DNA of 64,000 nucleotides from NCBI GenBank assembly GCA_964016885.1, contig OZ024758.1, positions 28,272,001 to 28,336,000 of the forward strand, given 5' to 3'. A program made the translations under genes and the position numbers. The stretch is from Eledone cirrhosa. Lineage: Eukaryota. Shown here one piece after another: positions 3,601-56,597 of this stretch. The notes under the pieces are model-generated. The model worked only from the letters and a program-made list of their open reading frames with translations, was not told where the DNA came from and ran no database searches. Positions within the stretch are counted from its first letter, which is position 1. Each line of letters starts with the position of its first letter.

Positions 3601-4410
3601 GGCAGGTTGTACGATGCCTGCATATGAACAGCAATGTTGCATGGCAGTGAGACCTGGGCATTGTGTGCAGAGGATATACGCAGACTAGAGAGAAACGAAG
3701 CTTGCATGCTCCGCTGGATGTGTAATAGTAATATACGTGAACGACAAAGCATAAACGAACTAAGGAAAAAATTAGAAATAAGAGGGATCAGATGTTGTTT
3801 ACTAGAGAGAAGGCTACGTTGGTATGGTCACGTGATGCGCATGAAGGACGATAGCTGTATAACAAAGTGCAGGGCAATAAAGATAGACGGTAGCCACGGA
3901 ATAGGCAGACCCAGAAAAACCTGGGACGAGCTGATAAACTCTGACCTCACACACTTACACCTCACCAAGACAATGTCACTGGACCGAGACCTTTGGCGGT
4001 ACTCAGTAATAGAGAAGACCCGCCTTACCTAAATACAAAGTAAAACCTACTACAGTCAGTAGGCATCTCTAACAAAATACACCCCGTCCCACCACCCCAT
4101 CCACACCGCCCCCTTCTATGTAAAGTTATGTTGGTGCCACACCATCCAGGCCGAAACAAATGAGATCGTGTAGGTGTCACAACAAAAAACACACAGTCCA
4201 CGCTGTAATGTGGCCGTGTAGGCAACACGGTAAAAACCTCCCAGACCCACACTGTAAATGTGGTTGGTGTTAGGAAGGGCATCCAACTGTAGAAAACCTG
4301 CCAGACAGTCCTATGCGAGCAAGACAATCACTCTTGCCTCAAGTGGGAAAACCCCCGTCCAAACCCATGCAAGCGTGGAACACGGACGTTAAACGTTGAT
4401 GATGATGATA
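690..4410 (+). mobile_element. RTE-clade non-LTR retrotransposon, family A, near full length (5' boundary approximate)
   Basis: Single ORF with APE endonuclease motifs (GTLNVGT, CIQETRW, SAYAPQ, GDLNGHVG, QVDYIL, SQHRLI) followed by RT (QFGF, FVDLEKAFDRV, GVHQGSILSPLLF, FRYLG); 3' UTR ends ...ggacgttaaacgtt(gat)n, the microsatellite tail typical of RTE. Confidence 0.96.
802..4032 (+). pseudogene. Inactivated APE-RT polyprotein of the RTE element
   Basis: ORFs 802-3627 and 3634-4032 are in the same frame, separated by TGA at 3625-3627 (Arg, CGA, in the sister copy at 18125-19786); catalytic YADD reads YAND (AAT at 3082-3084). Confidence 0.93.
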
Positions 4411-21169: not shown

Positions 21170-21428
21170 CGCCATTTCTTCTGTCAGCTACAACGACTTG
21201 AGATCAGCTGTCATCTTTTCTACCCAGGTCTTTCTTGGTCTTTCTCTGTTGCAGCTTCCTTCCACTTGGATATCTTGACACTTCTTCACCCACCTATCAT
21301 CACCTATGTACATCACATATTCATACCAGTATAGTCTTCTCTCCAGCCTTTACATCTTCTCTGCATCCACTGCTCATGTCTTGCTACCATACAACATCAC
21401 ACATCACACAGGCATCATACAGAGGGCC
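21170..21428 (-). mobile_element. Old RTE C-terminal remnant
   Basis: Minus strand reads LYDACV..VMLYGSKT*AVDAE..RLERRLYWY..V...VKKC..I.VEGSCNRERPRKTWVE...DLKSL.LTEEM. Confidence 0.8.
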
Positions 21429-28100: not shown

Positions 28101-31100
28101 AGGGTCCCTGTACCTGAACCATACAACAACACTGACTCAAGAGCTGGTGTCAGGGTCCCTGTACCTGATCCATACAACAACACTGATTCAAGTGCTGGTC
28201 TCAGGGTCCCTGTACCTGAACCATACAACAACACTGACTCAAGAGCTGGTGTCAGGGTCCCTGTACCTGATCCATACAACAACACTGACTCAAGAGCTGG
28301 TGTCAGGGTCCCTGTACCCGATCCATACAACAACACTGACTCAAGTGCTGCTGTCAGGGTCCAAGTACCTGATCCATACAACAACACTGACTCAAGTGCT
28401 GGTGTCAGGGTCCCTGTACCTGATCCATACAACAACACTGATTCAAGGGCTGGTGTCAGGGTCCAAGTACCTGATCCATACAACAACACTGACTCAAGTG
28501 CTGGTGTCTGGGTCCATGTACCTGATCCATACAACAACACTGACTCAAGAGCTGGTATCAGGTTCCATGTACCTGATCCATACAACAACACTGACTCAAG
28601 TGCTGGTGTCAGGGTCCCTGTACCTGATCCATACAACAACACTGACTCAAGAGCTGGTATCAGGGTCCATGTACCTGATCCATACAACAACACTGACTCA
28701 AATTCTGGTGTCAGGGTCCCTGTACCTGATCCATACAACAACACTGACTCAAGAGCTGGTGTCAGGGTGCCTGTACCCGATCCATACAACAACACTGACT
28801 CAAGTGCTGGTGTCTGGGTCCATGTACCTGATCCATACAACAACACTGACTCAAATTCTGGTGTCAGGGTCCATGTACCTGATCCATACAACAACACTGA
28901 CTCAAGAGCTGGTGTCAGGGTCCCTGTACCTGATCCATACAACAACACTGATTCAAGTGCTGGTCTCAGGGTCCATGTACCTGATCCATACAACAACACT
29001 GACTCAAGAGCTGGTGTCAGGGTCCCTGTACCTGATCCATACAACAACACTGATTCAAGTGCTGGTCTCAGGGTCCCTGTACCTGATCCATACAACAACA
29101 CTGACTCAAGTGCTGGTGTCAGGGTCCCTGTACCTGATCTATACAACAACACTGATTCAAGTGCTGGTCTCAGGGTCCATGTACCTGATCCATACAACAA
29201 CACTGACTCAAGTGCTGGTGTCTGGGTCCATGTACCTGATCCATACAACAACACTGACTCAAATTCTGGTGTCAGGGTCCCTGTACCTGATCCATACAAC
29301 AACACTGACTCAAGAGCTGGTGTCAGGGTCCATGTACCTGATCCATACAACAACACTGATTCAAGAGCTGGTGTCAGGGTCCATGTACCTGATCCATACA
29401 ACACTGACTCAACTGCTGGTGTCAGGGTCCATGTACCTGATCCATACAACACTGACTCAACTGCTGGTGTCAGGGTCCCTGTACTTGATCCATACAACAA
29501 CACTGATTCAAGGGCTGGTGTCAGGGTCCATGTACCTGAACCATACAACAATACTGACTCAAGAGCTGGTGTCAGGGTCCCTGTACCTGAACCATACAAC
29601 AACACTGACTCAAGTGCCGGTGTTAGGGACCATGTATCTGATCCATACAACAACACTGACTCAAGAGCTGGTGTCAGCGACCATGTACCTGATCCATACA
29701 ACAACACTGACTCAAGAGCTGGTGTCAGGGTCCCTGTACCTGATCCATACAACAACACTGACTCAAGTGCTGGTGTCTGGGTCCATGTACTTGATCCATA
29801 CAACAACACTGACTCAAGAGCTGGTGTCAGGGTCCATGTACCTGAACCATACAACAACACTGACTCAAGAGCTGGTGTCAGGGTCCCTGTGCCTGATCCA
29901 TACAACAACACTGACTCAAGTGCTGGTGTTAGGGTGCCTGTACCCGATCCATACAACAACACTGACTCAAGTGCTGGTGTCAGGGTCCAAGTACCTGATC
30001 CATACAACAACACTGACTCAAGTGCTGGTGTCTGGGTCCATGTACCTGATCCATACAACAACACTGACTCAAGAGCTGGTATCAGGTTCCATGTACCTGA
30101 TCCATACAACAACACTGACTCAAGTGCTGGTGTCAGGGTCCCTGTACCTGATCCATACAACAACACTGACTCAAGAGCTGGTATCAGGGTCCATGTACCT
30201 GATCCATACAACAACACTGACTCAAATTCTGGTGTCAGGGTCCCTGTACCTGATCCATACAACAACACTGACTCAAGAGCTGGTGTCAGGGTCCCTGTAC
30301 CTGATCCATACAACAACACTGATTCAAGTGCTGGTCTCAGGGTCCATGTACCTGATCCATACAACAACACTGACTCAAGTGCTGGTGTCTGGGTCCATGT
30401 ACCTGATCCATACAACAACACTGACTCAAATTCTGGTGTCAGGGTCCATGTACCTGATCCATACAACAACACTGACTCAAGAGCTGGTGTCAGGGTCCCT
30501 GTACCTGATCCATACAACAACACTGATTCAAGTGCTGGTCTCAGGGTCCATGTACCTGATCCATACAACAACACTGACTCAAGAGCTGGTGTCAGGGTCC
30601 CTGTACCTGATCCATACAACAACACTGATTCAAGTGCTGGTCTCAGGGTCCCTGTACCTGATCCATACAACAACACTGACTCAAGTGCTGGTGTCAGGGT
30701 CCCTGTACCTGATCTATACAACAACACTGATTCAAGTGCTGGTCTCAGGGTCCATGTACCTGATCCATACAACAACACTGACTCAAGTGCTGGTGTCTGG
30801 GTCCATGTACCTGATCCATACAACAACACTGACTCAAATTCTGGTGTCAGGGTCCCTGTACCTGATCCATACAACAACACTGACTCAAGAGCTGGTGTCA
30901 GGGTCCATGTACCTGATCCATACAACAACACTGATTCAAGAGCTGGTGTCAGGGTCCATGTACCTGATCCATACAACACTGACTCAACTGCTGGTGTCAG
31001 GGTCCATGTACCTGATCCATACAACACTGACTCAACTGCTGGTGTCAGGGTCCCTGTACTTGATCCATACAACAACACTGATTCAAGGGCTGGTGTCAGG

Positions 31101-31820
31101 GTCCATGTACCTGAACCATACAACAATACTGACTCAAGAGCTGGTGTCAGGGTCCCTGTACCTGAACCATACAACAATACTGACTCAAGTGCCGGTGTTA
31201 GGGACCATGTATCTGATCCATACAACAACACTGACTCAAGAGCTGGTGTCAGCGACCATGTACCTGATCCATACAACAACACTGACTCAAGAGCTGGTGT
31301 CAGGGTCCCTGTACCTGATCCATACAACAACACTGACTCAAGTGCTGGTGTCTGGGTCCATGTACTTGATCCATACAACAACACTGACTCAAGAGCTGGT
31401 GTCAGGGTCCATGTACCTGAACCATACAACAACACTGACTCAAGAGCTGGTGTCAGGGTCCCTGTGCCTGATCCATACAACAACACTGACTCAAGTGCTG
31501 GTGTTAGGGTGCCTGTACCCGATCCATACAACAACACTGACTCAAGTGCTGGTGTCAGGGTCCAAGTACCTGATCCATACAACAACACTGACTCATGTTC
31601 AGGTGCCAGGGTCCAAGTACCTGATCCATACAACAACACTGACTCAAGTGCTGGTGTCAGGTCCATCTACCTGATCCATACAACACTGACTGAAGTGCTG
31701 GTGTTAGGGTCTCTGTATCTGATCCATATAACACTGACTAAACAGATGTTCTGAAGAATGATATGTTAATTTTTTTCTGGGTAGATCTGACTTCTATATT
31801 CTTTCCATTTTATTCATAGT
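22170..31820 (-). mobile_element. Dead RTE-like LINE remnant (family D) expanded internally by the 51 bp array
   Basis: Minus-strand flank before the array: TMNKMERI*KSDLPRK/INISFFRTSV*SVLYGS; flank after it: TLTPALEKKLDSAYTKLLKVVQNINW...LYGNLPNIVSTI.QRCL*FAGHCWRSKQE..HKLLL*E..RRPTQTFIDQL. Confidence 0.9.
22499..31740. repeat. 51 bp tandem repeat, ~180 copies, some 48 bp variants
   Basis: Unit gactcaagagctggtgtcagggtccatgtacctgatccatacaacaacact; the minus strand translates to ALESVLLYGSGTWTLTP. Confidence 0.98.
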
Positions 31821-33112: not shown

Positions 33113-33245
33113 GTGGCAAATTGACAGTCATTAGAACATTGGATAGAATGCTCTCTGGGTTCAAATCCCACAGAGGTCAACTTTGCCTTTCCTTCTTTTG
33201 AGATCGATAAAAATGTACGAGGTCCAGTAACAGGGTCAATTCCTC
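33113..33245 (+). mobile_element. Degenerate S1-related SINE
   Basis: gggttcaaatcccacagaggtcaactttgccttt...gatcgataaaa. Confidence 0.65.
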
Positions 33246-33265
33246 CCTATAGCTTTTTCTTAATA

Positions 33266-33443
33266 CCCCCTCTCTCTCCCCCTCTCTCTCTCTTTCTCTC
33301 CCGCTGCCCCCTCTCTATCTCCCCTTCCCCCTCTCTCCCTCCATCTGCCCCTCTCTCCCACCCTCTGCCCTCTCTCTCTCTCCCTCTGCCTGCACCCTCT
33401 CTCACTCTGCCCCCTCTCTCTCTCCCTCTTCCCTCTCTCTCTC
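33266..33443. repeat. CT-rich low-complexity tract
   Basis: Polypyrimidine (CT)n-like run directly abutting the 70 bp array. Confidence 0.9.
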
Positions 33444-36400
33444 AGGATACTGTATAATGTCTGCAGACAATGTATGATGTTACATGGTAGGGAGACATGG
33501 GCTGTGAATGGAGAGGATACTGTATAATGTCTGCAGACAATGTATGATGTTACATGGTAGGGAGACAAGGGTTGTGAATGGAGAGGATACTGTATGATGT
33601 CTGTAGACAATGTATGATGTTACATGGTAGGGAGACATGGGCTGTGAATGGAGAGGATACTGTATAATGTCTGCAGACAATGTATGATGTTACATGGTAG
33701 GGAGACATGGGCTGTGAATGGAGAGGATACTGTATGATGTCTGTAGACAATGTATGATGTTACATGGTAGGGAGACATGGGCTGTGAATGGAGAGGATAC
33801 TGTATGATGTCTGTAGACAATGTATGATGTTACATGGTAGGGAGACATGGGCTGTGAATGGAGAGGATACTGTATGATGTCTGTAGACAATGTATGATGT
33901 TACATGGTAGGGAGACATGGGCTGTGAATGGAGAGGATACTGTATGATGTCTGCAGACAATGTATGATGTTACATGGTAGGGAGACATGGGCTGTGAATG
34001 GAGAGGATACTGTATAATGTCTGCAGACAATGTATGATGTTACATGGTAGGGAGACATGGGCTGTGAATGGAGAGGATACTGTATAATGTCTGCAGACAA
34101 TGTATGATGTTACATGGTAGGGAGACATGGGCTGTGAATGGAGAGGATACTGTATAATGTCTGCAGACAATGTATGATGTTACATGGTAGGGAGACATGG
34201 GCTGTGAATGGAGAGGATACTGTATAATGTCTGTAGACAATGTATGATGTTATATGGTAGGGAGACATGGGCTGTGAATGGAGAGGATACTGTATAATGT
34301 CTGTAGACAATGTATGATGTTACATGGTAGGGAGACATGGGCTGTGAATGGAGAGGATACTGTATGATGTCTGTAGACAATGTATGATGTTACATGGTAG
34401 GGAGACATGGGCTGTGAATGGAGAGGATACTGTATAATGTCTGTAGACAATGTATGATGTTACATGGTAGGGAGACATGGGCTGTGAATGGAGAGGATAC
34501 TGTATAATGTCTGTAGACAATGTATGATGTTACATGGTAGGGAGACATGGGCTGTGAATGGAGAGGATACTGTATAATGTCTGTAGACAATGTATGATGT
34601 TACATGGTAGGGAGACATGGGCTGTGAATGGAGAGGATACTGTATAATGTCTGCAGACAATGTATGATGTTACATGGTAGGGAGACATGGGCTGTGAATG
34701 GAGAGGATACTGTATAATGTCTGTAGACAATGTATGATGTTACATGGTAGGGAGACATGGGCTGTGAATGGAGAGGATACTGTATGATGTCTGTAGACAA
34801 TGTATGATGTTACATGGTAGGGAGACATGGGCTGTGAATGGAGAGGATACTGTATAATGTCTGTAGACAATGTATGATGTTACATGGTAGGGAGACATGG
34901 GCTGTGAATGGAGAGGATACTGTATGATGTCTGCAGACAATGTATGATGTTACATGGTAGGGAGACATGGGCTGTGAATGGAGAGGATACTGTATAATGT
35001 CTGCAGACCATGTATGATGTTACATGGTAGGGAGACATGGGCTGTGAATGGAGAGGATACTGTATAATGTCTGCAGACCATGTATGATGTTACATGGTAA
35101 GGGAGACATGGGCTGTGAATGGAGAGGATACTGTATAATGTCTGCAGACAATGTATGATGTTACATGGTAGGGAGACAAGGGCTGTGAATGGAGAGGATA
35201 CTGTATAATGTCTGCAGACCATGTATGATGTTACATGGTAGGGAAACATGGGCTGTGAATGGAGAGGATACTGTATGATGTCTGCAGACAATGTATGATG
35301 TTACATGGTAGGGAGACATGGGCTGTGAATGGAGAGGATACTGTATAATGTCTGCAGACAATGTATGATGTTGCATGGTAGGGAGACATGGGCTGTGAAT
35401 GGAGAGGATACTGTATGATGCCTACAGACAATGTATGATGTTACATGGTAGGGAGACATGGGCTGTGAATGGAGAGGATACTGTATGATGTCTGCAGACA
35501 ATGTATGATGTTACATGGTAGGGAGACATGGGCTGTGAATGGAGAGGATACTGTATGATGCCTACAGACAATGTATGATGTTACATGGTAGGGAGACATG
35601 GGCTGTGAATGGAGAGGATACTGTATAATGTCTGTAGACAATGTATGATGTTACATGGTAGGGAGACATGGGCTGTGAATGGAGAGGATACTGTATAATG
35701 TCTGCAGACAATGTATAATGTTATATGGTAGGGAGACATGGGCTGTGAATGGAGAGGATACTGTATAATATCTGTAGACAATGTATGATGTTACATGGTA
35801 GGGAGACATGGGCTGTGAATGGAGAGGATACTGTATAATGTCTGTAGACAATGTATGATGTTACATGGTAGGGAGACATGGGCTGTGAATGGAGAGGATA
35901 CTGTATGATGTCTGCAGACAATGTATGATGTTACATGGTAGGGAGACATGGGCTGTGAATGGAGAGGATACTGTATGATGTCTGCAGACAATGTATGATG
36001 TTACATGGTAGGGAGACATGGGCTGTGAATGGAGAGGATACTGTATGATGTCTGCAGACAATGTATGATGTTACATGGTAGGGAGACATGGGCTGTGAAT
36101 GGAGAGGATACTGTATAATGTCTGCAGACAATGTATGATGTTACATGGTAGGGAGACATGGGCTGTGAATGGAGAGGATACTGTATAATGTCTGTAGACA
36201 ATGTATGATGTTACATGGTAGGGAGACATGGGCTGTGAATGGAGAGGAGACTGTATAATGTCTGTAGACAATGTATGATGTTACATGGTAGGGAGACATG
36301 GGCTGTGAATGGAGAGGAGACTGTATAATGTCTGCAGACAATGTTATATGTTACATGGTAGGGAGACATGGGCTGTGAATGGAGAGGATACTGTATAATG

Positions 36401-39400
36401 TCTGTAGACAATGTTATATGTTACATGGTAGGGAGACATGGGCTGTGAATGGAGAGGATACTGTATAATGTCTGCAGACAATGTATGATGTTACATGGTA
36501 GGGAGACATGGGCTGTGAATGGAGAGGATACTGTATGATGTCTGCAGACAATGTATGATGTTACATGGTAGGGAGACATGGGCTGTGAATGGAGAGGATA
36601 CTGTATAATGTCTGTAGACAATGTATGATGTTACATGGTAGGGAGACATGGGCTGTGAATGGAGAGGATACTGTGTAATGTCTGTAGACAATGTATGATG
36701 TTACATGGTAGGGAGACATGGGCTGTGAATGGAGAGGATACTGTATAATGTCTGTAGACAATGTATGATGTTACATGGTAGGGAGACATGGGCTGTGAAT
36801 GGAGAGGAGACTGTATAATGTCTGCAGACAATGTTATATGTTACATGGTAGGGAGACATGGGCTGTGAATGGAGAGGATACTGTATGATGTCTGCAGACA
36901 ATGTATGATGTTACATGGTAGGGAGACATGGGCTGTGAATGGAGAGGATACTGTATGATGTCTGCAGACAATGTATGATGTTACATGGTAGGGAGACATG
37001 GGCTGTGAATGGAGAGGATACTGTATAATGTCTGCAGACAATGTATGATGTTACATGGTAGGGAGACATGGGCTGTGAATGGAGAGGATACTGTATAATG
37101 TCTGCAGACAATGTATGATGTTACATGGTAGGGAGACATGGGCTGTGAATGGAGAGGATACTGTATGATGTCTGCAGACAATGTATGATGTTACATGGTA
37201 GGGAGACATGGGCTGTGAATGGAGAGGAGACTGTATAATGTCTGCAGACAATGTATGATGTTACATGGTAGGGAGACATGGGCTGTGAATGGAGAGGATA
37301 CTGTATAATGTCTGCAGACAATGTATGATGTTACATGGTAGGGAGACATGGGCTGTGAATGGAGAGGAGACTGTATAATGTCTGCAGACAATTTATGATG
37401 TTACATGGTAGGGAGACATGGGCTGTGAATGGAGAGGATACTGTATAATATCTGCAGACAATGTATGATGTTACATGGTAGGGAGACATGGGCTGTGAAT
37501 GGAGTGGATACTGTATAATGTCTGCAGACAATGTATGATGTTACATGGTAGGGAGACATGGGCTGTGAATGGAGAGGATACTGTATGATGTCTGCAGACA
37601 ATGTATGATGTTACATGGTAGGGAGACATGGGCTGTGAATGGAGAGGATACTGTATAATGTCTGCAGACAATGTATGATGTTATATGGTAGGGAGACATG
37701 GGCTGTGAATGGAGTGGATACTGTATAATGTCTGCAGACAATGTATGATGTTACATGGTAGGGAGACATGGGCTGTGAATGGAGAGGATACTGTATGATG
37801 TCTGCAGACAATGTATGATGTTACATGGTAGGGAGACATGGGCTGTGAATGGAGAGGATACTGTATAATGTCTGCAGACAATGTTATATGTTACATGGTA
37901 GGGAGACATGGGCTGTGAATGGAGAGGATACTGTATAATGTCTGCAGACAATGTATGATGTTACATGGTAGGAGACATGGGCTGTGAATGGAGAGGATTA
38001 CTGTATAATGTCTGCAGACAATGTATGATGTTACATGGTAGGGAGACATGGGCTGTGAATGGAGAGGATACTGTATAATGTCTGCAGACAATGTATGATG
38101 TTACATGGTAGGGAGACATGGGCTGTGAATGGAGAGGATACTGTATAATGTCTGCAGACAATGTTATATGTTACATGGTAGGGAGACATGGGCTGTGAAT
38201 GGAGAGGATACTGTATAATGTCTGCAGACAATGTATGATGTTACATGGTAGGGAGACATGGGCTGTGAATGGAGAGGTTACTGTATAATGTCTGCAGACA
38301 ATGTATATGTTACATGGTAGGGAGACATGGGCTGTGAATGGAGAGGATACTGTATAATGTCTGCAGACAATGTTATATGTTACATGGTAGGGAGACATGG
38401 GCTGTGAATGGAGAGGATACTGTATAATGTCTGCAGACAATGTTATATGTTACATGGTAGGGAGACATGGGCTGTGAATGGAGAGGATACTGTATAATGT
38501 CTGCAGACAATGTTATATGTTACATGGTAGGGAGACATGGGCTGTGAATGGAGAGGATACTGTATAATGTCTGCAGACAATGTTATATGTTACATGGTAG
38601 GGAGACATGGGCTGTGAATGGAGAGGATACTGTATAATGTCTGCAGACAATGTTATATGTTACATGGTAGGGAGACATGGGCTGTGAATGGAGAGGATAC
38701 TGTATAATGTCTGCAGACAATGTATGATGTTACATGGTAGGGAGACATGGGCTGTGAATGGAGAGGATACTGTATAATGTCTGCAGACAATGTATGATGT
38801 TACATGGTAGGGAGACATGGGCTGTGAATGGAGAGGATACTGTATAATGTCTGCAGACAATGTATGATGTTACATGGTAGGGAGACATGGGCTGTGAATG
38901 GAGAGGATACTGTATAATGTCTGCAGACAATGTTATATGTTACATGGTAGGGAGACATGGGCTGTGAATGGAGAGGATACTGTATAATGTCTGCAGACAA
39001 TGTATGATGTTACATGGTAGGGAGACATGGGCTGTGAATGGAGAGGATACTGTATAATGTCTGCAGACAATGTTATATGTTACATGGTAGGGAGACATGG
39101 GCTGTGAATGGAGAGGATACTGTATAATGTCTGCAGACAATGTTATATGTTACATGGTAGGGAGACATGGGCTGTGAATGGAGAGGATACTGTATAATGT
39201 CTGCAGACAATGTATGATGTTACATGGTAGGGAGACATGGGCTGTGAATGGAGAGGATACTGTATAATGTCTGCAGACAATGTATGATGTTACATGGTAG
39301 GGAGACATGGGCTGTGAATGGAGAGGATACTGTATAATGTCTGCAGACAATGTATGATGTTACATGGTAGGGAGACATGGGCTGTGAATGGAGAGGATAC

Positions 39401-42400
39401 TGTATAATGTCTGCAGACAATGTATGATGTTACATGGTAGGGAGACATGGGCTGTGAATGGAGAGGATACTGTATAATGTCTGCAGACAATGTTATATGT
39501 TACATGGTAGGGAGACATGGGCTGTGAATGGAGAGGATACTGTATAATGTCTGCAGACAATGTATGATGTTACATGGTAGGGAGACATGGGCTGTGAATG
39601 GAGAGGATACTGTATAATGTCTGCAGACAATGTTATGATGTTACATGGTAGGGAGACATGGGCTGTGAATGGAGAGGATACTGTATAATGTCTGCAGACA
39701 ATGTTATATGTTACATGGTAGGGAGACATGGGCTGTGAATGGAGAGGATACTGTATAATGTCTGCAGACAATGTATGATGTTACATGGTAGGGAGACATG
39801 GGCTGTGAATGGAGAGGATACTGTATAATGTCTGCAGACAATGTATGATGTTACATGGTAGGGAGACATGGGCTGTGAATGGAGAGGATACTGTATAATG
39901 TCTGCAGACAATGTATGATGTTACATGGTAGGGAGACATGGGCTGTGAATGGAGAGGATACTGTATAATGTCTGCAGACAATGTATGATGTTACATGGTA
40001 GGGAGACATGGGCTGTGAATGGAGAGGATACTGTATAATGTCTGCAGACAATGTATGATGTTACATGGTAGGGAGACATGGGCTGTGAATGGAGAGGATA
40101 CTGTATAATGTCTGCAGACAATGTATGATGTTACATGGTAGGGAGACATGGGCTGTGAATGGAGAGGATACTGTATAATGTCTGCAGACAATGTATGATG
40201 TTACATGGTAGGGAGACATGGGCTGTGAATGGAGAGGATACTGTATAATGTCTGCAGACAATGTATGATGTTACATGGTAGGGAGACATGGGCTGTGAAT
40301 GGAGAGGATACTGTATAATGTCTGCAGACAATGTATGATGTTACATGGTAGGGAGACATGGGCTGTGAATGGAGAGGATACTGTATAATGTCTGCAGACA
40401 ATGTATGATGTTACATGGTAGGGAGACATGGGCTGTGAATGGAGAGGATACTGTATAATGTCTGCAGACAATGTATGATGTTACATGGTAGGGAGACATG
40501 GGCTGTGAATGGAGAGGATACTGTATAATGTCTGCAGACAATGTATGATGTTACATGGTAGGGAGACATGGGCTGTGAATGGAGAGGATACTGTATAATG
40601 TCTGCAGACAATGTATGATGTTACATGGTAGGGAGACATGGGCTGTGAATGGAGAGGATACTGTATAATGTCTGCAGACAATGTATGATGTTACATGGTA
40701 GGGAGACATGGGCTGTGAATGGAGAGGATACTGTATAATGTCTGCAGACAATGTATGATGTTACATGGTAGGGAGACATGGGCTGTGAATGGAGAGGATA
40801 CTGTATAATGTCTGCAGACAATGTATGATGTTACATGGTAGGGAGACATGGGCTGTGAATGGAGAGGATACTGTATAATGTCTGCAGACAATGTATGATG
40901 TTACATGGTAGGGAGACATGGGCTGTGAATGGAGAGGATACTGTATAATGTCTGCAGACAATGTATGATGTTACATGGTAGGGAGACATGGGCTGTGAAT
41001 GGAGAGGATACTGTATAATGTCTGCAGACAATGTATATGTTACATGGTAGGGAGACATGGGCTGTGAATGGAGAGGATACTGTATAATGTCTGCAGACAA
41101 TGTATGATGTTACATGGTAGGGAGACATGGGCTGTGAATGGAGAGGATACTGTATAATGTCTGCAGACAATGTATGATGTTACATGGTAGGGAGACATGG
41201 GCTGTGAATGGAGAGGATACTGTATAATGTCTGCAGACAATGTATGATGTTACATGGTAGGGAGACATGGGCTGTGAATGGAGAGGATACTGTATAATGT
41301 CTGCAGACAATGTATGATGTTACATGGTAGGGAGACATGGGCTGTGAATGGAGAGGATACTGTATAATGTCTGCAGACAATGTATGATGTTACATGGTAG
41401 GGAGACATGGGCTGTGAATGGAGAGGATACTGTATAATGTCTGTAGACAATGTATATGTTACATGGTAGGGAGACATGGGCTGTGAATGGAGAGGATACT
41501 GTATGATGTCTGCAGACAATGTATGATGTTACATGGTAGGGAGACATGGGCTGTGAATGGAGAGGATACTGTATAATGTCTGCAGACAATGTATGATGTT
41601 ACATGGTAGGGAGACATGGGCTGTGAATGGAGAGGATACTGTATAATGTCTGCAGACAATGTATGATGTTACATGGTAGGGAGACATGGGCTGTGAATGG
41701 AGAGGATACTGTATAATGTCTGTAGACAATGTATGATGTTACATGGTAGGGAGACATGGGCTGTGAATGGAGAGGATACTGTATAATGTCTGCAGACAAT
41801 GTTATATGTTACATGGTAGGGAGACATGGGCTGTGAATGGAGAGGATACTGTATAATGTCTGCAGACAATGTATGATGTTACATGGTAGGGAGACATGGG
41901 CTGTGAATGGAGAGGATACTGTATAATGTCTGCAGACAATGTATGATGTTACATGGTAGGGAGACATGGGCTGTGAATGGAGAGGATACTGTATAATGTC
42001 TGCAGACAATGTATGATGTTACATGGTAGGGAGACATGGGCTGTGAATGGAGAGGATACTGTATAATGTCTGTAGACAATGTATGATGTTACATGGTAGG
42101 GAGACATGGGCTGTGAATGGAGAGGATACTGTATAATGTCTGTAGACAATGTATGATGTTACATGGTAGGGAGACATGGGCTGTGAATGGAGAGGATACT
42201 GTATAATGTCTGTAGACAATGTATGATGTTACATGGTAGGGAGACATGGGCTGTGAATGGAGAGGATACTGTATAATGTCTGCAGACAATGTATGATGTT
42301 ACATGGTAGGGAGACATGGGCTGTGAATGGAGAGGATACTGTATAATGTCTGCAGACAATGTATGATGTTACATGGTAGGGAGACATGGGCTGTGAATGG

Positions 42401-45400
42401 AGAGGATACTGTATGATGTCTGCAGACAATGTATGATGTTACATGGTAGGGAGACATGGGCTGTGAATGGAGAGGATACTGTATAATGTCTGCAGACAAT
42501 GTATGATGTTACATGGTAGGGAGACATGGGCTGTGAATGGAGAGGATACTGTATAATGTCTGCAGACAATGTATGATGTTACATGGTAGGGAGACATGGG
42601 CTGTGAATGGAGAGGATACTGTATAATGTCTGCAGACAATGTATGATGTTACATGGTAGGGAGACATGGGCTGTGAATGGAGAGGATACTGTATGATGTC
42701 TGCAGACAATGTATGATGTTACATGGTAGGGAGACATGGGCTGTGAATGGAGAGGATACTGTATAATGTCTGCAGACAATGTATGATGTTACATGGTAGG
42801 GAGACATGGGCTGTGAATGGAGAGGATACTGTATAATGTCTGCAGACAATGTATGATGTTACATGGTAGGGAGACATGGGCTGTGAATGGAGAGGATACT
42901 GTATAATGTCTGCAGACAATGTATGATGTTACATGGTAGGGAGACATGGGCTGTGAATGGAGAGGATACTGTATAATGTCTGCAGACAATGTATGATGTT
43001 ACATGGTAGGGAGACATGGGCTGTGAATGGAGAGGATACTGTATAATGTCTGCAGACAATGTATGATGTTACATGGTAGGGAGACATGGGCTGTGAATGG
43101 AGAGGATACTGTATAATGTCTGCAGACAATGTATGATGTTACATGGTAGGGAGACATGGGCTGTGAATGGAGAGGATACTGTATAATGTCTGAAGACAAT
43201 GTATGATGTTACATGGTAGGGAGACATGGGCTGTGAATGGAGAGGATACTGTATAATGTCTGCAGACAATGTATGATGTTACATGGTAGGGAGACATGGG
43301 CTGTGAATGGAGAGGATACTGTATGATGTCTGCAGACAATGTATGATGTTACATGGTAGGGAGACATGGGCTGTGAATGGAGAGGATACTGTATAATGTC
43401 TGCAGACAATGTATGATGTTACATGGTAGGGAGACATGGGCTGTGAATGGAGAGGATACTGTATAATGTCTGCAGACAATGTATGATGTTACATGGTAGG
43501 GAGACATGGGCTGTGAATGGAGAGGATACTGTATAATGTCTGTAGACAATGTTATGATGTTACATGGTAGGGAGACATGGGCTGTGAATGGAGAGGATAC
43601 TGTATGATGTCTGCAGACAATGTATGATGTTACATGGTAGGGAGACATGGGCTGTGAATGGAGAGGATACTGTATAATGTCTGCAGACAATGTATGATGT
43701 TACATGGTAGGGAGACATGGGCTGTGAATGGAGAGGATACTGTATAATGTCTGCAGACAATGTATGATGTTACATGGTAGGGAGACATGGGCTGTGAATG
43801 GAGAGGATACTGTATAATGTCTGTAGACAATGTTATATGTTACATGGTAGGGAGACATGGGCTGTGAATGGAGAGGATACTGTATGATGTCTGCAGACAA
43901 TGTATGATGTTACATGGTAGGGAGACATGGGCTGTGAATGGAGAGGATACTGTATAATGTCTGCAGACAATGTATGATTTTACATGGTAGGGAGACATGG
44001 GCTGTGAATGGAGAGGATACTGTATAATGTCTGCAGACAATGTATGATGTTACATGGTAGGGAGACATGGGCTGTGAATGGAGAGGATACTGTATAATGT
44101 CTGTAGACAATGTTATATGTTACATGGTAGGGAGACATGGGCTGTGAATGGAGAGGATACTGTATGATGTCTGCAGACAATGTATGATGTTACATGGTAG
44201 GGAGACATGGGCTGTGAATGGAGAGGATACTGTATAATGTCTGCAGACAATGTATGATGTTACATGGTAGGGAGACATGGGCTGTGAATGGAGAGGATAC
44301 TGTATAATGTCTGCAGACAATGTATGATGTTACATGGTAGGGAGACATGGGCTGTGAATGGAGAGGATACTGTATAATGTCTGTAGACAATGTATGATGT
44401 TACATGGTAGGGAGACATGGGCTGTGAATGGAGAGGATACTGTATAATGTCTGCAGACAATGTATGATGTTACATGGTAGGGAGACATGGGCTGTGAATG
44501 GAGAGGATACTGTATAATGTCTGTAGACAATGTTATATGTTACATGGTAGGGAGACATGGGCTGTGAATGGAGAGGATACTGTATGATGTCTGCAGACAA
44601 TGTATGATGTTACATGGTAGGGAGACATGGGCTGTGAATGGAGAGGATACTGTATAATGTCTGCAGACAATGTATGATGTTACATGGTAGGGAGACATGG
44701 GCTGTGAATGGAGAGGATACTGTATAATGTCTGTAGACAATGTATGATGTTACATGGTAGGGAGACATGGGCTGTGAATGGAGAGGAGACTGTATAATGT
44801 CTGTAGACAATGTATGATGTTACATGGTAGGGAGACATGGGCTGTGAATGGAGAGGAGACTGTATAATGTCTGCAGACAATGTTATATGTTACATGGTAG
44901 GGAGACATGGGCTGTGAATGGAGAGGATACTGTATAATGTCTGTAGACAATGTTATATGTTACATGGTAGGGAGACATGGGCTGTGAATGGAGAGGATAC
45001 TGTATAATGTCTGCAGACAATGTATGATGTTACATGGTAGGGAGACATGGGCTGTGAATGGAGAGGATACTGTATGATGTCTGCAGACAATGTATGATGT
45101 TACATGGTAGGGAGACATGGGCTGTGAATGGAGAGGATACTGTATAATGTCTGTAGACAATGTATGATGTTACATGGTAGGGAGACATGGGCTGTGAATG
45201 GAGAGGATACTGTGTAATGTCTGTAGACAATGTATGATGTTACATGGTAGGGAGACATGGGCTGTGAATGGAGAGGATACTGTATAATGTCTGTAGACAA
45301 TGTATGATGTTACATGGTAGGGAGACATGGGCTGTGAATGGAGAGGAGACTGTATAATGTCTGCAGACAATGTTATATGTTACATGGTAGGGAGACATGG

Positions 45401-48400
45401 GCTGTGAATGGAGAGGATACTGTATGATGTCTGCAGACAATGTATGATGTTACATGGTAGGGAGACATGGGCTGTGAATGGAGAGGATACTGTATGATGT
45501 CTGCAGACAATGTATGATGTTACATGGTAGGGAGACATGGGCTGTGAATGGAGAGGATACTGTATAATGTCTGCAGACAATGTATGATGTTACATGGTAG
45601 GGAGACATGGGCTGTGAATGGAGAGGATACTGTATAATGTCTGCAGACAATGTATGATGTTACATGGTAGGGAGACATGGGCTGTGAATGGAGAGGATAC
45701 TGTATGATGTCTGCAGACAATGTATGATGTTACATGGTAGGGAGACATGGGCTGTGAATGGAGAGGAGACTGTATAATGTCTGCAGACAATTTATGATGT
45801 TACATGGTAGGGAGACATGGGCTGTGAATGGAGAGGATACTGTATAATGTCTGCAGACAATGTATGATGTTACATGGTAGGGAGACATGGGCTGTGAATG
45901 GAGAGGATACTGTATGATGTCTGCAGACAATGTATGATGTTACATGGTAGGGAGACATGGGCTGTGAATGGAGAGGAGACTGTATAATGTCTGCAGACAA
46001 TTTATGATGTTACATGGTAGGGAGACATGGGCTGTGAATGGAGAGGATACTGTATAATGTCTGCAGACAATGTATGATGTTACATGGTAGGGAGACATGG
46101 GCTGTGAATGGAGAGGATACTGTATAATGTCTGCAGACAATGTATGATGTTATATGGTAGGGAGACATGGGCTGTGAATGGAGTGGATACTGTATAATGT
46201 CTGCAGACAATGTATGATGTTACATGGTAGGGAGACATGGGCTGTGAATGGAGAGGATACTGTATAATGTCTGTAGACAATGTATGATGTTACATGGTAG
46301 GGAGACATGGGCTGTGAATGGAGAGGATACTGTATAATGTCTGCAGACAATGTATGATGTTATATGGTAGGGAGACATGGGCTGTGAATGGAGAGGATAC
46401 TGTATAATGTCTGTAGACAATGTATGATGTTACATGGTAGGGAGACATGGGCTGTGAATGGAGAGGATACTGTATAATGTCTGTAGACAATGTATGATGT
46501 TACATGGTAGGGAGACATGGGCTGTGAATGGGGAGGATACTGTATAATGTCTGCAGACAATGTATGATGTTACATGGTAGGGAGACATGGGCTGTGAATG
46601 GAGAGGATACTGTGTAATGTCTGTAGACAATGTATGATGTTACATGGTAGGGAGACATGGGCTGTGAATGGAGAGGATACTGTGTAATGTCTGTAGACAA
46701 TGTATGATGTTACATGGTAGGGAGACATGGGCTGTGAATGGAGTGGATACTGTATGATGTCTGCAGACAATGTATGATGTTACATGGTAGGGAGACATGG
46801 GCTGTGAATGGGGAGGATACTGTATAATGTCTGTAGACAATGTATGATGTTACATGGTAGGGAGACATGGGCTGTGAATGGGGAGGATACTGTATAATGT
46901 CTGCAGACAATGTATGATGTTACATGGTAGGGAGACATGGGCTGTGAATGGAGAGGATACTGTATAATGTCTGCAGACAATGTATGATGTTACATGGTAG
47001 GGAGACATGGGCTGTGAATGGGGAGGATACTGTATAATGTCTGCAGACAATGTATGATGTTACATGGTAGGGAGACATGGGCTGTGAATGGAGAGGATAC
47101 TGTGTAATGTCTGTAGACAATGTATGATGTTACATGGTAGGGAGACATGGGCTGTGAATGGAGAGGATACTGTATGATGCCTACAGACAATGTATGATGT
47201 TACATGGTAGGGAGACATGGGCTGTGAATGGAGAGGATACTGTATAATGTCTGCAGACCATGTATGATGTTACATGGTAAGGGAGACATGGGCTGTGAAT
47301 GGAGAGGATACTGTATGATGCCTACAGACAATGTATGATGTTACATGGTAGGGAGACATGGGCTGTGAATGGAGAGGATACTGTATGATGTCTGCAGACA
47401 ATGTATGATGTTACATGGTAGGGAGACATGGGCTGTGAATGGAGAGGATACTGTATAATGTCTGCAGACCATGTATGATGTTACATGGTAAGGGAGACAT
47501 GGGCTGTGAATGGAGAGGATACTGTATAATGTCTGCAGACCATGTATGATGTTACATGGTAGGGAGACATGGGCTGTGAATGGAGAGGATACTGTATAAT
47601 GTCTGCAGACCATGTATGATGTTACATGGTAGGGAGACATGGGCTGTGAATGGAGAGGATACTGTATGATGTCTGCAGACAATGTATGATGTTACATGGT
47701 AGGGAGACATGGGCTGTGAATGGAGAGGATACTGTATGATGTCTGCAGACAATGTATGATGTTACATGGTAGGGAGACATGGGCTGTGAATGGAGAGGAT
47801 ACTGTATGATGCCTACAGACAATGTATGATGTTACATGGTAGGGAGACATGGGCTGTGAATGGAGAGGATACTGTATAATGTCTGCAGACAATGTATGAT
47901 GTTACATGGTAGGGAGACATGGGCTGTGAATGGAGAGGATACTGTATGATGCCTACAGACAATGTATGATGTTACATGGTAGGGAGACATGGGCTGTGAA
48001 TGGAGAGGATACTGTATGATGTCTGCAGACAATGTATGATGTTACATGGTAGGGAGACATGGGCTGTGAATGGAGAGGATACTGTATGATGCCTACAGAC
48101 AATGTATGATGTTACATGGTAGGGAGACATGGGCTGTGAATGGAGAGGATACTGTATAATGTCTGCAGACAATGTATGATGTTACATGGTAGGGAGACAT
48201 GGGCTGTGAATGGAGAGGATACTGTATGATGCCTACAGACAATGTATGATGTTACATGGTAGGGAGACATGGGCTGTGAATGGAGAGGATACTGTATAAT
48301 GTCTGCAGACAATGTATGATGTTACATGGTAGGGAGACATGGGCTGTGAATGGAGAGGATACTGTATAATGTCTGCAGACAATGTATGATGTTACATGGT

Positions 48401-51400
48401 AGGGAGACATGGGCTGTGAATGGAGAGGATACTGTGTAATGTCTGTAGACAATGTATGATGTTACATGGTAGGGAGACATGGGCTGTGAATGGAGAGGAT
48501 ACTGTATAATGTCTGCAGACAATGTATGATGTTACATGGTAGGGAGACATGGGCTGTGAATGGAGAGGATACTGTATAATGTCTGCAGACAATGTATGAT
48601 GTTACATGGTAGGGAGACATGGGCTGTGAATGGAGAGGATACTGTATGATGCCTACAGACAATGTATGATGTTACATGGTAGGGAGACATGGGCTGTGAA
48701 TGGAGAGGATACTGTATAATGTCTGCAGACAATGTATGATGTTACATGGTAGGGAGACATGGGCTGTGAATGGAGAGGATACTGTATAATGTCTGCAGAC
48801 AATGTATGATGTTACATGGTAGGGAGACATGGGCTGTGAATGGAGAGGATACTGTGTAATGTCTGTAGACAATGTATGATGTTACATGGTAGGGAGACAT
48901 GGGCTGTGAATGGAGAGGATACTGTATAATGTCTGCAGACAATGTATGATGTTACATGGTAGGGAGACATGGGCTGTGAATGGAGAGGATACTGTATAAT
49001 GTCTGCAGACAATGTATGATGTTACATGGTAGGGAGACATGGGCTGTGAATGGAGAGGATACTGTATAATGTCTGCAGACAATGTATGATGTTACATGGT
49101 AGGGAGACATGGGCTGTGAATGGAGAGGATACTGTATAATGTCTGTAGACAATGTATGATGTTACATGGTAGGGAGACATGGGCTGTGAATGGAGAGGAT
49201 ACTGTATGATGCCTACAGACAATGTATGATGTTACATGTTAAGGAGACATGGGCTGTGAATGGAGAGGATACTGTGTAATGTCTGTAGACAATGTATGAT
49301 GTTACATGGTAGGGAGACATGGGCTGTGAATGGAGAGGATACTGTATAATGTCTGCAGACAATGTATAATGTTACATGGTAGGGAGACAAGGGCTGTGAA
49401 TGGAGAGGATACTGTATAATGTCTGTAGACAATGTATGATGTTACATGGTAGGGAGACAAGGGCTGTGAATGGAGAGGATACTGTATAATGTCTGCAGAC
49501 AATGTATGATGTTACATGGTAGGGAGACATGGGCTGTGAATGGAGAGGATACTGTATAATGTCTGCAGACAATGTATGATGTTACATGGTAGGGAGACAT
49601 GGGCTGTGAATGGAGAGGATACTGTATAATGTCTGCAGACAATGTATGATGTTACATGGTAGGGAGACAAGGGCTGTGAATGGAGAGGATACTGTATAAT
49701 GTCTGCAGACAATGTATGATGTTACATGGTAGGGAGACATGGGCTGTGAATGGAGAGGATACTGTATAATGTCTGCAGACAATGTATGATGTTACATGGT
49801 AGGGAGACATGGGCTGTGAATGGAGAGGATACTGTATGATGTCTGCAGACAATGTATGATGTTACATGGTAGGGAGACATGGGCTGTGAATGGAGAGGAT
49901 ACTGTATGATGTCTGCAGACAATGTATGATGTTACATGGTAGGGAGACATGGGCTGTGAATGGAGAGGATACTGTATAATGTCTGCAGACAATGTATGAT
50001 GTTACATGGTAGGGAGACATGGGCTGTGAATGGAGAGGATACTGTATGATGTCTGCAGACAATGTATGATGTTACATGGTAGGGAGACATGGGCTGTGAA
50101 TGGAGAGGATACTGTATGATGTCTGCAGACAATGTATGATGTTACATGGTAGGGAGACATGGGCTGTGAATGGAGTGGATACTGTATAATGTCTGCAGAC
50201 AATGTATGATGTTACATGGTAGGGAGACATGGGCTGTGAATGGAGAGGATACTGTATAATGTCTGTAGACAATGTATGATGTTACATGGTAGGGAGACAT
50301 GGGCTGTGAATGGAGAGGATACTGTATAATGTCTGTAGACAATGTATGATGTTACATGGTAGGGAGACATGGGCTGTGAATGGAGAGGATACTGTATGAT
50401 GTCTGCAGACAATGTATGATGTTACATGGTAGGGAGACATGGGCTGTGAATGGAGAGGATACTGTATAATGTCTGCAGACAATGTATGATGTTACATGGT
50501 AGGGAGACATGGGCTGTGAATGGAGAGGATACTGTATGATGTCTGCAGACAATGTATGATGTTACATGGTAGGGAGACATGGGCTGTGAATGGAGAGGAT
50601 ACTGTATGATGTCTGCAGACAATGTATGATGTTACATGGTAGGGAGACATGGGCTGTGAATGGAGAGGATACTGTATAATGTCTGCAGACAATGTATGAT
50701 GTTACATGGTAGGGAGACATGGGCTGTGAATGGAGAGGATACTGTATGATGTCTGCAGACAATGTATGATGTTACATGGTAGGGAGACATGGGCTGTGAA
50801 TGGAGAGGATACTGTATGATGTCTGCAGACAATGTATGATGTTACATGGTAGGGAGACATGTGCTGTGAATGGAGTGGATACTGTATAATGTCTGCAGAC
50901 AATGTATGATGTTACATGGTAGGGAGACATGGGCTGTGAATGGAGAGGATACTGTATAATGTCTGTAGACAATGTATGATGTTACATGGTAGGGAGACAT
51001 GGGCTGTGAATGGAGAGGATACTGTATAATGTCTGTAGACAATGTATGATGTTACATGGTAGGGAGACATGGGCTGTGAATGGAGAGGATACTGTATGAT
51101 GTCTGCAGACAATGTATGATGTTACATGGTAGGGAGACATGGGCTGTGAATGGAGAGGATACTGTATAATGTCTGCAGACAATGTATGATGTTACATGGT
51201 AGGGAGACATGGGCTGTGAATGGAGAGGATACTGTATAATGTCTGCAGACAATGTATGATGTTACATGGTAGGGAGACATGGGCTGTGAATGGAGAGGAT
51301 ACTGTATAATGTCTGTAGACAATGTTATATGTTACATGGTAGGGAGACATGGGCTGTGAATGGAGAGGATACTGTATGATGTCTGCAGACAATGTATGAT

Positions 51401-52211
51401 GTTACATGGTAGGGAGACATGGGCTGTGAATGGAGAGGATACTGTGTAATGTCTGCAGACAATGTATGATGTTACATGGTAGGGAGACAAGGGCTGTGAA
51501 TGGAGAGGATACTGTATAATGTCTGCAGACAATGTATGATGTTACATGGTAGGGAGACAAGGGCTGTGAATGGAGAGGATACTGTATAATGTCTGCAGAC
51601 AATGTATGATGTTACATGGTAGGGAGACAAGGGCTGTGAATGGAGAGGATACTGTATAATGTCTGCAGACAATGTATGATGTTACATGGTAGGGAGACAA
51701 GGGCTGTGAATGGAGAGGATACTGTATGATGTCTGTAGACAATGTATGATGTTACATGGTAGGGAGACATGGGCTGTGAATGGAGAGGATACTGTATAAT
51801 GTCTGCAGACAATGTATGATGTTACATGGTAGGGAGACATGGGCTGTGAATGGAGAGGATACTGTATGATGTCTGCAGACAATGTATGATGTTACATGGT
51901 AGGGAGACATGGGCTGTGAATGGAGAGGAGACTGTATGATGTCTGCAGACAATGTATGATGTTACATGGTAGGGAGACATGGGCTGTGAATGGAGAGGAT
52001 ACTGTATAATGTCTGCAGACAATGTATGATGTTACATGGTAGGGAGACATGGGCTGTGAATGGAGTGGATACTGTATAATGTCTGTAGACAATGTATGAT
52101 GTTACATGGTAGGGAGACATGGGCTGTGAATGGAGAGGATACTGTATAATGTCTGTAGACAATGTATGATGTTACATGGTAGGGAGACATGGGCTGTGAA
52201 TGGAGTGGATA
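33444..52211. repeat. 70 bp satellite, ~268 copies, 18.8 kb
   Basis: Unit aggatactgtataatgtctgcagacaatgtatgatgttacatggtagggagacatgggctgtgaatggag; one plus frame reads ILYNVCRQCMMLHGRETWAVNGED. Confidence 0.99.
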
Positions 52212-52325
52212 GGCAATGTCAGGAGAGAAATGAAGGAAACTGCTTCATTTCTGATTGTCCAATATTAATGCGAGAGGATGACAACGTATAGATGGACTGA
52301 GATGGACACGGGTCAGGATAGTATT
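52212..52325 (+). mobile_element. RTE remnant continuing from the last 70 bp unit
   Basis: Reads ...WAVNGVDRQCQERNEGN then, after a frameshift, LSNINARG*QRIDGLR; compare RTE WALCAEDIRRLERNEACMLRWMCNSNIRERQSINELR. Confidence 0.75.
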
Positions 52326-52348
52326 TTGAACTTCTGCTCCCCCACATT

Positions 52349-53312
52349 TTGTCACCCACAGTGTGTCACTCACAATATGTCACCCACATTATGTCACCCA
52401 CAATGTGTCACCCACAGTGTCACCCACAATGCGTCACTCACAATGTGTCAGCCACAATGTGCCACTCACCAGATCTTCATCTTGTAACCCACAAGCCCCC
52501 CCCCCCCCACTAGATCTTCATCTTGTCACCCACAACACCATACCCCCACCCGGTACTCATCTTATCACCTACAATGTCCCCTGACCATCAGATACCCATT
52601 TGTCACCCACAATGCTCTCCCATACCAGATCTCCATCTTGTCACCCACAATATGTCACACCCACCACCAGATCGCCATCTTATCACCTACAATGTCCCCT
52701 CACCACCAGATCTCCATCTTGTCACCTACAATGTCCCCCACCACCAGATCCCCATCTTGTCACCTACAATGTCCCCCACCACCAGATCTCCATCTTGTCA
52801 CCCACCAATATGTCCCTCCACCACCAGATCTCTATCTTGTCACCCACCAATATGTCCCCCCACCACCAGATCTCCATCTTATCACCTACAATGTCCCCCC
52901 ACCACCAGATCTCCATCTTATCACCTACAATGTCCCCCCACCACCAGATCTCTATCTTGTCACCCACCAATATGTCACACCCACCACCAGATCTCCATCT
53001 TGTCACCCACCAATATGTCACACCCACCTCCAGATCTCCATCTTATCACCCACAATATGTCACACCCACCACCAGATCTCCATCTTATCACCTACAATGT
53101 CCCCCTACCATCAGATCTCCATCTTGTCACCCACAATATGTCACACCCACCACCAGATCTCCATCTTGTCACCCACAATATGTCACACCCACCACCAGAT
53201 CTCTATCTTGTCACCCACCAATATGTCCCCCCACCACCAGATCTCCATCTTGTCACCTACAATGTCCCCCCACCACCAGATCTCCATCTTGTCACCCACT
53301 CCTGTCACTCAC
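52349..53312. repeat. Irregular ~35-45 bp minisatellite
   Basis: Units such as caccaccagatctccatcttgtcacctacaatgtccccc, preceded by shorter tgtcacccaca repeats. Confidence 0.93.
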
Positions 53313-56500: not shown

Positions 56501-56597
56501 GGTAAAGGGTTAATGATGCAGTCACATTAACTTTGGTTTCACAATAACACTAAGTATGTTTATATAGACATCATATACTGAGTTAGCAAATAATAAT

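What the first reader, a model, noticed from the sequence alone, without database searches (positions are those of the whole stretch)
33430..52325. The 18.8 kb 70 bp satellite is an RTE coding segment duplicated at an AGGATA microhomology
Seen: the unit aligns without gaps, codon by codon, to RTE 3604-3675 (ATG TTA CAT GGT AGG GAG ACA TGG GCT vs ATG TTG CAT GGC AGT GAG ACC TGG GCA). Minor variants restore RTE residues (tatgatgcc = YDA; agactgtat = RLY). The right flank continues DRQCQERNE (RTE: DIRRLERNE). An unamplified relative at 21357-21422 (minus: ctgtatgatgcctgtg...gatgttgtatggtagcaagacatgagcagtggatgcagag) is visibly closer to the unit. The array starts ctcAGGATA and ends gtGGATA. The ORF track hides all this because 70 is not a multiple of 3. 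Inference: the left CT tract may be an expansion of the upstream F-S-L codons.
Basis: partly seen in the sequence, partly recalled or inferred. Interest (0 to 1): 0.82.

Follow-up and report, generated by a model that had tools for sequence, protein, structure and literature searches.

The report
Satellite grown from retrotransposon coding DNA
A 19-kb block of 268 near-identical 70-letter repeats, in what is probably an octopus genome, is made of a piece of a dead jumping gene's protein-coding DNA and most likely grew where it lies; similar blocks come from the same short part of these jumping genes at many other places in this genome.

Summary
The array is real: 33444-52211, 268 units of 70 bp plus a 6-bp tail, with its junction found only here (233 of 233 hits). 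Its unit is the LYD..MLHGSETW segment of an old RTE-type LINE ORF, and the right flank continues that ORF for about 100 bp. Units differ by 1.5% from each other's majority but 17% from the family, so amplification came long after decay. The 8-bp word at the left edge recurs where the LINE piece ends, so a target-site duplication likely supplied the microhomology; this is unconfirmed. The array belongs to a genome-wide class: this motif and a second one 180 bp downstream seed multi-locus 47, 51, 75 and 80-bp arrays, near the ends of the two largest chromosomes. It works like the SINE-derived satellites of reptiles (PMC10702118), from LINE coding DNA. The scan noted LINE-born arrays elsewhere in this genome before (e1-9515023).

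The parts
33444..52211 (+). 70-bp tandem array, 268 units + 6-bp tail; unit = LINE ORF codons L-Y-N-V-C-R-Q-C-M-M-L-H-G-R-E-T-W-A-V-N-G-E-D plus one base
52212..52312 (+). unamplified continuation of the same LINE ORF; firm to 52302, weak to 52312; no LINE 3' end follows
   Evidence: junction held by contigs of runs X1 and X2 with 0 differences over 52176-52335
33442..33449 (+). left copy of an 8-bp direct repeat; ends exactly where LINE-collinear sequence starts (33450); its last 6 bases are the boundary word
   Evidence: role as target-site duplication inferred
52313..52320 (+). right copy of the same 8-bp direct repeat, 0-10 bases after the end of LINE homology
   Evidence: role inferred
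33266..33443 (+). degenerate CT tract; host flank, no LINE homology
33115..33263 (+). dispersed multi-copy repeat (SINE-like; the label is recalled)
   Evidence: blastn hits at 72-90% identity in many fetched loci
22498..31733 (-). neighbouring 51-bp array (about 182 units, LESVLLYGSGTWTLTPA) from the homologous motif of a second LINE lineage, with both LINE flanks attached
   Evidence: one-unit copies at 20 places
21355..21422 (-). unamplified relative of the unit, 51/70
931..4409 (+). younger near-full-length single-ORF LINE (AP endonuclease, RT, PHD-like finger, one stop, trinucleotide tail); reference for the reading frame, 48/70 to the unit at 3607-3676

Best explanation
The array consists of a 70-bp piece of an old RTE-type LINE reading frame still joined on its right to about 100 bp more of that frame; it was most likely duplicated in place long after the LINE piece had decayed, likely by slippage between a 6-bp word inside the piece and a matching word in the host target site beside it, and then likely expanded to 268 copies by unequal exchange and conversion between units. 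Shown: LINE origin, single locus, young array on an old fragment, exchange between units, absence of the microhomology from the LINE family. Inferred: that the 8-bp direct repeat at both ends of the roughly 170-bp LINE piece is a target-site duplication, that it seeded the first duplication, and the expansion mechanism. No function is indicated; it is most likely neutral DNA. My odds: LINE origin and growth in place 0.95; target-site-supplied microhomology about 0.6.
For: Collinearity of unit and flank to profile positions 301-460; 42 matches at 71-88% identity elsewhere, none near-identical. Junction 26-mer: 233 hits in 3.0 Gb, all in the window. Mean 1.05 differences per unit from the majority, majority differs from the family at 11 of 64 sites, flank at most 73% identical to a relative. 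All four combinations of the two commonest variants occur (101, 41, 27, 7 units); 6 of the 7 family-like units lie in the first 20 units and the 7th in the last 10; a 17-unit block recurs 122 units later (autocorrelation 0.140, best of 200 shuffles 0.117). The head-to-tail joint ('goes back 70') is in contigs of 2 of 3 older runs at tens-fold the depth of the flank. The 8-bp word occurs at 33442 and 52313 and at 2 other places on the window's + strand; by hand about 2e-4 to 5e-4 for an 11-base target, perhaps 1% after allowing that I found it after the fact. The left overhang is exactly 6 bp, as a microhomology predicts.
Against: The LINE piece has no 3' tail, so ordinary target-primed insertion does not explain a target-site duplication; a patch-type or internally primed insertion must be assumed. 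The direct repeat was noticed after the fact, its chance rate was not calibrated by simulation, and the end of LINE homology is fuzzy (52302-52312, 6 of the next 13 bases still match). No empty site or paralogous flank was found (self plus one 2-mismatch hit, control 1). 5 of 19 other arrays also lack the left LINE flank and some begin within a unit, so simple loss of the left side is common. The left junction was not checked in raw data. Runs X1-X3 are one sample, possibly the assembled one, and contig depth is not a copy number.
Confidence: 0.6

Rival explanations
1. Same LINE origin in place, but the first duplication formed with little or no microhomology inside a longer LINE copy; the left LINE flank and first unit were later deleted, leaving a 6-bp stump, and the 8-bp repeat at 52313 is chance.
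For: 0-1 bp microhomology at period 70 in 22 relatives; 5 of 19 arrays have lost the left flank, and L082, L083 and L115 start inside a unit; the fragment lacks a 3' tail, so deletions did occur or the insertion was atypical.
Against: Needs a deletion ending within 6 of 70 bases of the junction and an independent 8-bp coincidence at the other end.
Confidence: 0.3
2. One reading: the LINE copy itself carried the 6-bp word at both breakpoints, and the CT tract grew from its upstream codons.
For: Some subfamilies share 4 bases of the word one base out of register; relatives have a short CT-rich run about 9 bases further upstream.
Against: 0 of 28 relatives and 0 genome-wide hits against 7805; needs a 1-base and a 9-base deletion plus loss of all LINE sequence beyond the tract.
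Confidence: 0.05
3. The array was amplified elsewhere (or on a DNA circle) and inserted here ready-made, annealing to the target by the 6-bp word.
For: Annealing-type 5' junctions are described for LINE inserts (PMC4245944, abstract only); the 47-bp arrays share a derived junction across unrelated flanks, so transfer between loci may happen in this genome.
Against: No second locus has the junction or a near-identical flank; family-like units sit at both edges as expected for long residence.
Confidence: 0.05

Closest known systems
SINE-derived satellites (sSat) of squamate reptiles, Vassetzky et al. 2023, PMC10702118 (read: abstract, section 5, Discussion; supplements not seen)
   Same: Tandem units cut from inside an interspersed retroelement, a terminal unit that runs on into the parent, tens to about 1000 units, shared unit boundaries across loci, preference for chromosome ends, independent origins.
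   Different: Parent here is LINE protein-coding DNA, not a SINE; both flanks are often kept; this 70-bp junction is private to one locus; a possible target-site repeat supplies the microhomology.
Satellites similar to LINE ORF2 (chicken HinfI/CR1, hamster PROsat/L1, seal Pvc20/L1) as listed in the review PMC9659126 (passages only; primary papers not read)
   Same: Satellite DNA containing LINE coding sequence.
   Different: The review reports that non-coding, already repetitive parts of elements prevail as sources and lists single ORF cases; here short units come recurrently from two ORF motifs in several LINE lineages with the parent still attached.
Satellites from Ogre LTR-retrotransposon 3' UTR repeats (PisTR-A in PMC9659126 passages; PMC7004042 search listing only)
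   Same: One region of a retroelement repeatedly feeds satellite arrays.
   Different: There the tandem repeat already exists inside the element's UTR; here the parent has one unit in coding DNA.
Octopus RTE LINEs such as RTE-2_OV, PMC9115989 (passages)
   Same: Single ORF with endonuclease and RT, microsatellite 3' end; relatives of the window's LINE protein include Octopus bimaculoides entries at 60-72% identity.
   Different: No sequence comparison to RTE-2_OV was possible; the passages seen contain no occurrence of 'tandem'.

Membership tests
RTE-clade non-LTR retrotransposon (parent) | single ORF with AP endonuclease followed by RT | tested here: met
   window 931-3624: PF03372/PF14529 and PF00078 above cut-off. 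This is the younger relative; the older parent subfamily was recovered only back to about residue 300 of it.
RTE-clade non-LTR retrotransposon (parent) | 3' end in a microsatellite | tested here: met
   short trinucleotide run at about 4397-4409; named as common in RTE in PMC9115989 passages. Absent at the array's own fragment.
RTE-clade non-LTR retrotransposon (parent) | RT groups with reference RTE elements in a tree | not testable with these tools
   no reference RTE set on hand; solved-structure hits are R2, L1 and group II intron RTs, and they cover only the RT core. 'RTE' therefore rests on architecture and recall.
sSat-type retroelement-derived satellite | unit is an internal part of the parent element | tested here: met
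sSat-type retroelement-derived satellite | terminal unit extends into unamplified parent | tested here: met
   right side, about 100 bp; not on the left
sSat-type retroelement-derived satellite | parent is a SINE | tested here: not met
   parent is a LINE ORF; so it works like an sSat but is not one
sSat-type retroelement-derived satellite | same unit at many loci | tested here: not met
   70-bp junction at one locus; met by the sister 47, 51, 75 and 80-bp arrays
sSat-type retroelement-derived satellite | preference for chromosome ends | tested here: inconclusive
   17 of 17 listed array loci on C1 and C2 lie within 26.2 Mb of an end against 2 of 37 C1 hits of a single-copy-context pattern; this locus is 11.9 Mb from the end of a 40.2-Mb contig, and 51-bp arrays occur mid-contig on C1 and C4
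Target-primed LINE insertion | target-site duplication flanking the insert | tested here: inconclusive
   8-bp direct repeat at both ends; empty site not found
Target-primed LINE insertion | element's own 3' end and tail present | tested here: not met
   homology stops by 52312, well inside the ORF

The most novel reading that the evidence does not exclude
Octopus LINE coding DNA behind the RT domain acts as a standing nursery for satellites: new junctions are born at two conserved motifs (here through a target-site duplication that lends a microhomology), and successful junctions then 'home' into other, unrelated copies of the parent LINE near chromosome ends by ectopic conversion, so that arrays with the same derived junction appear inside copies that do not share ancestry.
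Probability: 0.3. Interest if true: 0.7.

Novelty: new variant of a known kind. Interest (0 to 1): 0.46.

Why it matters
Satellite origins are rarely caught with the parent attached. Here founder sequence, breakpoints, age order (old fragment, young array) and thousands of unamplified sister copies are all readable, and dozens of sister arrays give replicates. That makes testable what decides which tandem duplication becomes a satellite: microhomology, unit sequence or chromosomal position. It also warns that arrays masked as simple satellite in cephalopod assemblies can be LINE coding DNA, and that in-frame ones (the 51-bp array gives open frames of over 1500 codons) can be miscalled as repeat proteins. 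Nothing suggests a function for this array.

Tried and rejected
1) 'GSETW is the one hotspot': at periods 42-72 it looked exclusive (1601 pairs for 14227 singles; ERNEA motif 6 pairs at one locus for 4669 singles; upstream motif 1 pair, no single count taken). Rejected in that form: the WYGHVM motif gives 459 pairs at 42-72, 10 places once the large C2 array is excluded and 1306 pairs at 73-102 for 34397 singles. In an unbiased 800-kb sample (80 stretches on C19, C23, C24, C25) 0 of 24 GSETW matches lay in a LINE-derived array, while 6 arrays were built on the W-x-G-H-V motif, 2 more on the 3' end, and 16 on 3' UTR repeats. ERNEA and the upstream motif were not tested at periods over 72, and no motif in the endonuclease or RT core was tested. 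2) Master element already carrying the 47-bp duplication: no doubled hit on C1 between 6.5 and 421 Mb although single copies are spread there. 3) CT tract as LINE codons: no support. 4) Empty site or paralogous flank: none found. 6) Rfam on 32000-34000: only sub-threshold hits. 7) Assigning the motif to the RT thumb by structure search: alignments stop at the RT core, so 'thumb' is recalled only. 8) Not done: simulation of the chance rate of the boundary repeat, and a count of one base variant in unamplified copies of the sample; both remain open. Scan look-ups by sequence and by words returned nothing.

Full report
1. The observation. Tandem Repeats Finder gives one array at 33444-52211, period 70, 268.1 copies, 97% matches. 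Segmenting it gives 268 units and a 6-bp tail; 258 units are 70 bp, 6 are 71 and 4 are 69; there are 43 distinct units, the commonest in 101 copies. Read from its first base the unit gives R-I-L-Y-N-V-C-R-Q-C-M-M-L-H-G-R-E-T-W-A-V-N-G, and the last unit runs on as V-D-R-Q-C-Q-E-R-N-E. Against the window's LINE ORF at 18128-19861 this is 16 of 32 identical residues without gaps, E 2e-8. At DNA level the unit matches 3607-3676 at 48/70, the other two young copies at 47/70, and 21355-21422 at 51/70 with a 2-base gap. The window LINE at 931-3624 has AP endonuclease and RT domains in one frame and a PHD-like finger below cut-off. Relatives of its C-terminal part include Octopus bimaculoides entries at 60-72% identity, so the host is probably an octopus. 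The label 'RTE' rests on this architecture and on passages of PMC9115989, not on a tree; 'thumb region' is recalled, since structure hits cover only the RT core.

2. The parent and the locus. A search of the own genome with the last unit plus flank gave 42 matches at 71-88% identity (39 of 290 candidates scored), an older subfamily group. Of the 30 loci fetched, 2 were themselves arrays and were left out of the profile; 28 were used. Of these, 21 could be compared in register and reach up to 58-60/70. The right flank alone scores 34 bits on that profile, best of 300 shuffles -4.8; the left flank scores 0.8 bits on the wrong strand. The collapsed locus aligns to profile positions 301-460 at 112.6 bits, starting 5-6 bases into the unit. 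An exact 26-mer across the unit junction has 233 hits in 3.0 Gb, and the window holds 233. Contigs of older public runs show the head-to-tail joint in 2 of 3 runs and the right junction without differences in 2 of 3; these runs are one sample, perhaps the assembled one. The left junction was not checked in raw data.

3. Age and growth. Units differ from the majority by 1.05 bases on average (1.5%), the majority differs from the family at 11 of 64 sites (17%), and the flank is at most 73% identical to a relative: an old fragment, a young array. Four of 23 minor alleles equal the family state, among them the two commonest. The haplotype with both (7 units) lies at the edges: 6 in the first 20 units, 1 in the last 10. 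All four combinations of these two sites occur, which needs exchange between units or recurrent change, and a 17-unit block recurs 122 units later, as unequal exchange would leave.

4. The microhomology. In the LINE family there is none at period 70: 0-1 bp in 22 relatives, the 6-bp word upstream in 0 of 28, 0 genome-wide against 7805 copies with the usual context. But the 8-bp word at 33442-33449, which ends exactly where LINE-collinear sequence begins, recurs at 52313-52320, where LINE homology ends (firm to 52302, weak to 52312); it occurs at only 2 other places on the window's + strand. A hand estimate is 2e-4 to 5e-4 for an 11-base target, perhaps 1% after allowing for hindsight; no simulation was run. 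I read this as a likely target-site duplication around an internal LINE piece of about 170 bp, whose left copy matched a word 70 bp downstream and seeded the duplication. Against: no LINE tail, no empty site found, and 5 of 19 other arrays have also lost their left flank. Annealing at LINE 5' junctions is described in PMC4245944 (abstract only). The CT tract is host flank behind another dispersed repeat.

5. The wider class. The neighbouring 51-bp array (22498-31733) encodes the homologous motif of a second LINE lineage on the minus strand, with both flanks attached; it recurs at 12 other listed places (8 fetched), and one-unit copies exist at 20 places. For the first lineage, a doubled 17-mer gives 1601 pairs at periods 42-72, mostly 47 bp; of 19 loci examined 14 keep the left and 17 the right LINE flank. 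Other periods occur (24, 35/42, 59/66, 69/73, 72), 15 places at 48-58 (complete list; some are variants of the 47-bp unit), and 4 places in the young family. On C1 and C2 all 17 listed loci lie within 26.2 Mb of an end, against 2 of 37 C1 hits for a single-copy-context pattern; 3 of the C1 loci share a flank and count as one origin. A flank tree (47 rows, 2 dropped and 1 skipped for short or missing flank) is star-like, and one clade for the 17 47-bp arrays is rejected (p-AU 2.8e-5; 0.0095 for a 15-row subset that I named after seeing the tree). Yet 14 of 18 array consensuses share two derived bases beside the junction, one of which is seen in 0 of 27 single copies and in 19 against 340 upstream contexts genome-wide. 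Ectopic conversion between loci or repeated convergence could explain this; I could not tell them apart.

6. Evidence against a special hotspot. The ERNEA motif 46 bp downstream gives 6 pairs at one locus and an upstream motif 1 pair, but the WYGHVM motif 180 bp downstream seeds its own multi-locus 75 and 80-bp arrays. In an unbiased 800-kb sample, 489 arrays of period 20-300 cover about 250 kb; none was built on GSETW (24 matches), 6 on W-x-G-H-V, 2 on the 3' end, 16 on 3' UTR repeats. So these small chromosomes amplify much of what they hold, and the post-RT ORF has at least two favoured segments; the upstream ORF was not tested by pattern.

7. Comparison and verdict. The closest described system is the SINE-derived satellites of squamates (PMC10702118; abstract, section 5 and Discussion read; supplements not seen and may hold LINE-related detail): internal unit, terminal unit running into the parent, chromosome-end bias. 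A review (PMC9659126, passages) lists a few satellites with LINE ORF2 similarity and says non-coding parts prevail. Seven searches of the held library listed no title on ORF-derived arrays in cephalopods or on a target-site duplication seeding a satellite; the library lacks most subscription papers. An earlier scan note (e1-9515023) described LINE-born arrays elsewhere in this genome, gave me the reptile paper and argued for ordinary local duplication, which my sample partly bears out. Verdict: real, a new variant of a known kind, probably neutral; interest 0.46.

Noticed in passing
window 22498-31733 (minus): 9.2-kb 51-bp array is an in-frame amplification of the homologous motif of a second LINE lineage, bounded by a 5-bp microhomology present in one-unit copies; open frames of over 1500 codons could be miscalled as a gene.
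   Followed up: yes
L022, L025, L071-L087, L119, L120: 47-bp arrays inside LINE copies share two derived bases beside the junction although their flanks do not form one clade; left-edge units often keep the ancestral bases.
   Followed up: partly
G000:C2:400.91-400.94 Mb; many places on C7-C22: Large 43/48-bp array and multi-locus 75 and 80-bp arrays built on the WYGHVM motif of the same LINE group.
   Followed up: partly
L111-L112 (C3:371.31-371.33 Mb), L117-L118 (C16), L121-L122 (C25): Further multi-kb arrays on the GSETW motif: about 22 kb of 42-bp units, 40/42-bp units filling whole 10-kb stretches, and 69/73-bp units.
   Followed up: partly
window 55693-56501 with 53653-53922 and about 20500-20610: A 72-bp array abuts the 5'-truncated end of a LINE (54203-55690, minus) and keeps its frame open for 769 codons; the same unit occurs in short form inside another dispersed repeat nearby.
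   Followed up: no
window 931-4029, 18128-19861, 54203-55690: These LINE ORFs carry a PHD-like cysteine-rich finger between the RT domain and the amplified motif (Pfam PF00628, 22.8-28.1 bits against cut-off 24).
   Followed up: no
window 5411-8954, 52341-53299, 62795-64000: Further arrays of 43, 14/42 and 28 bp; no LINE origin was tested for them.
   Followed up: no
window 9150-9870 (minus): Fragment of a third LINE lineage with the same motif (VESVLLYWSETW), unamplified.
   Followed up: partly
L143-L222: About 250 of 800 kb sampled on four small chromosomes is tandem repeat of period 20-300.
   Followed up: partly
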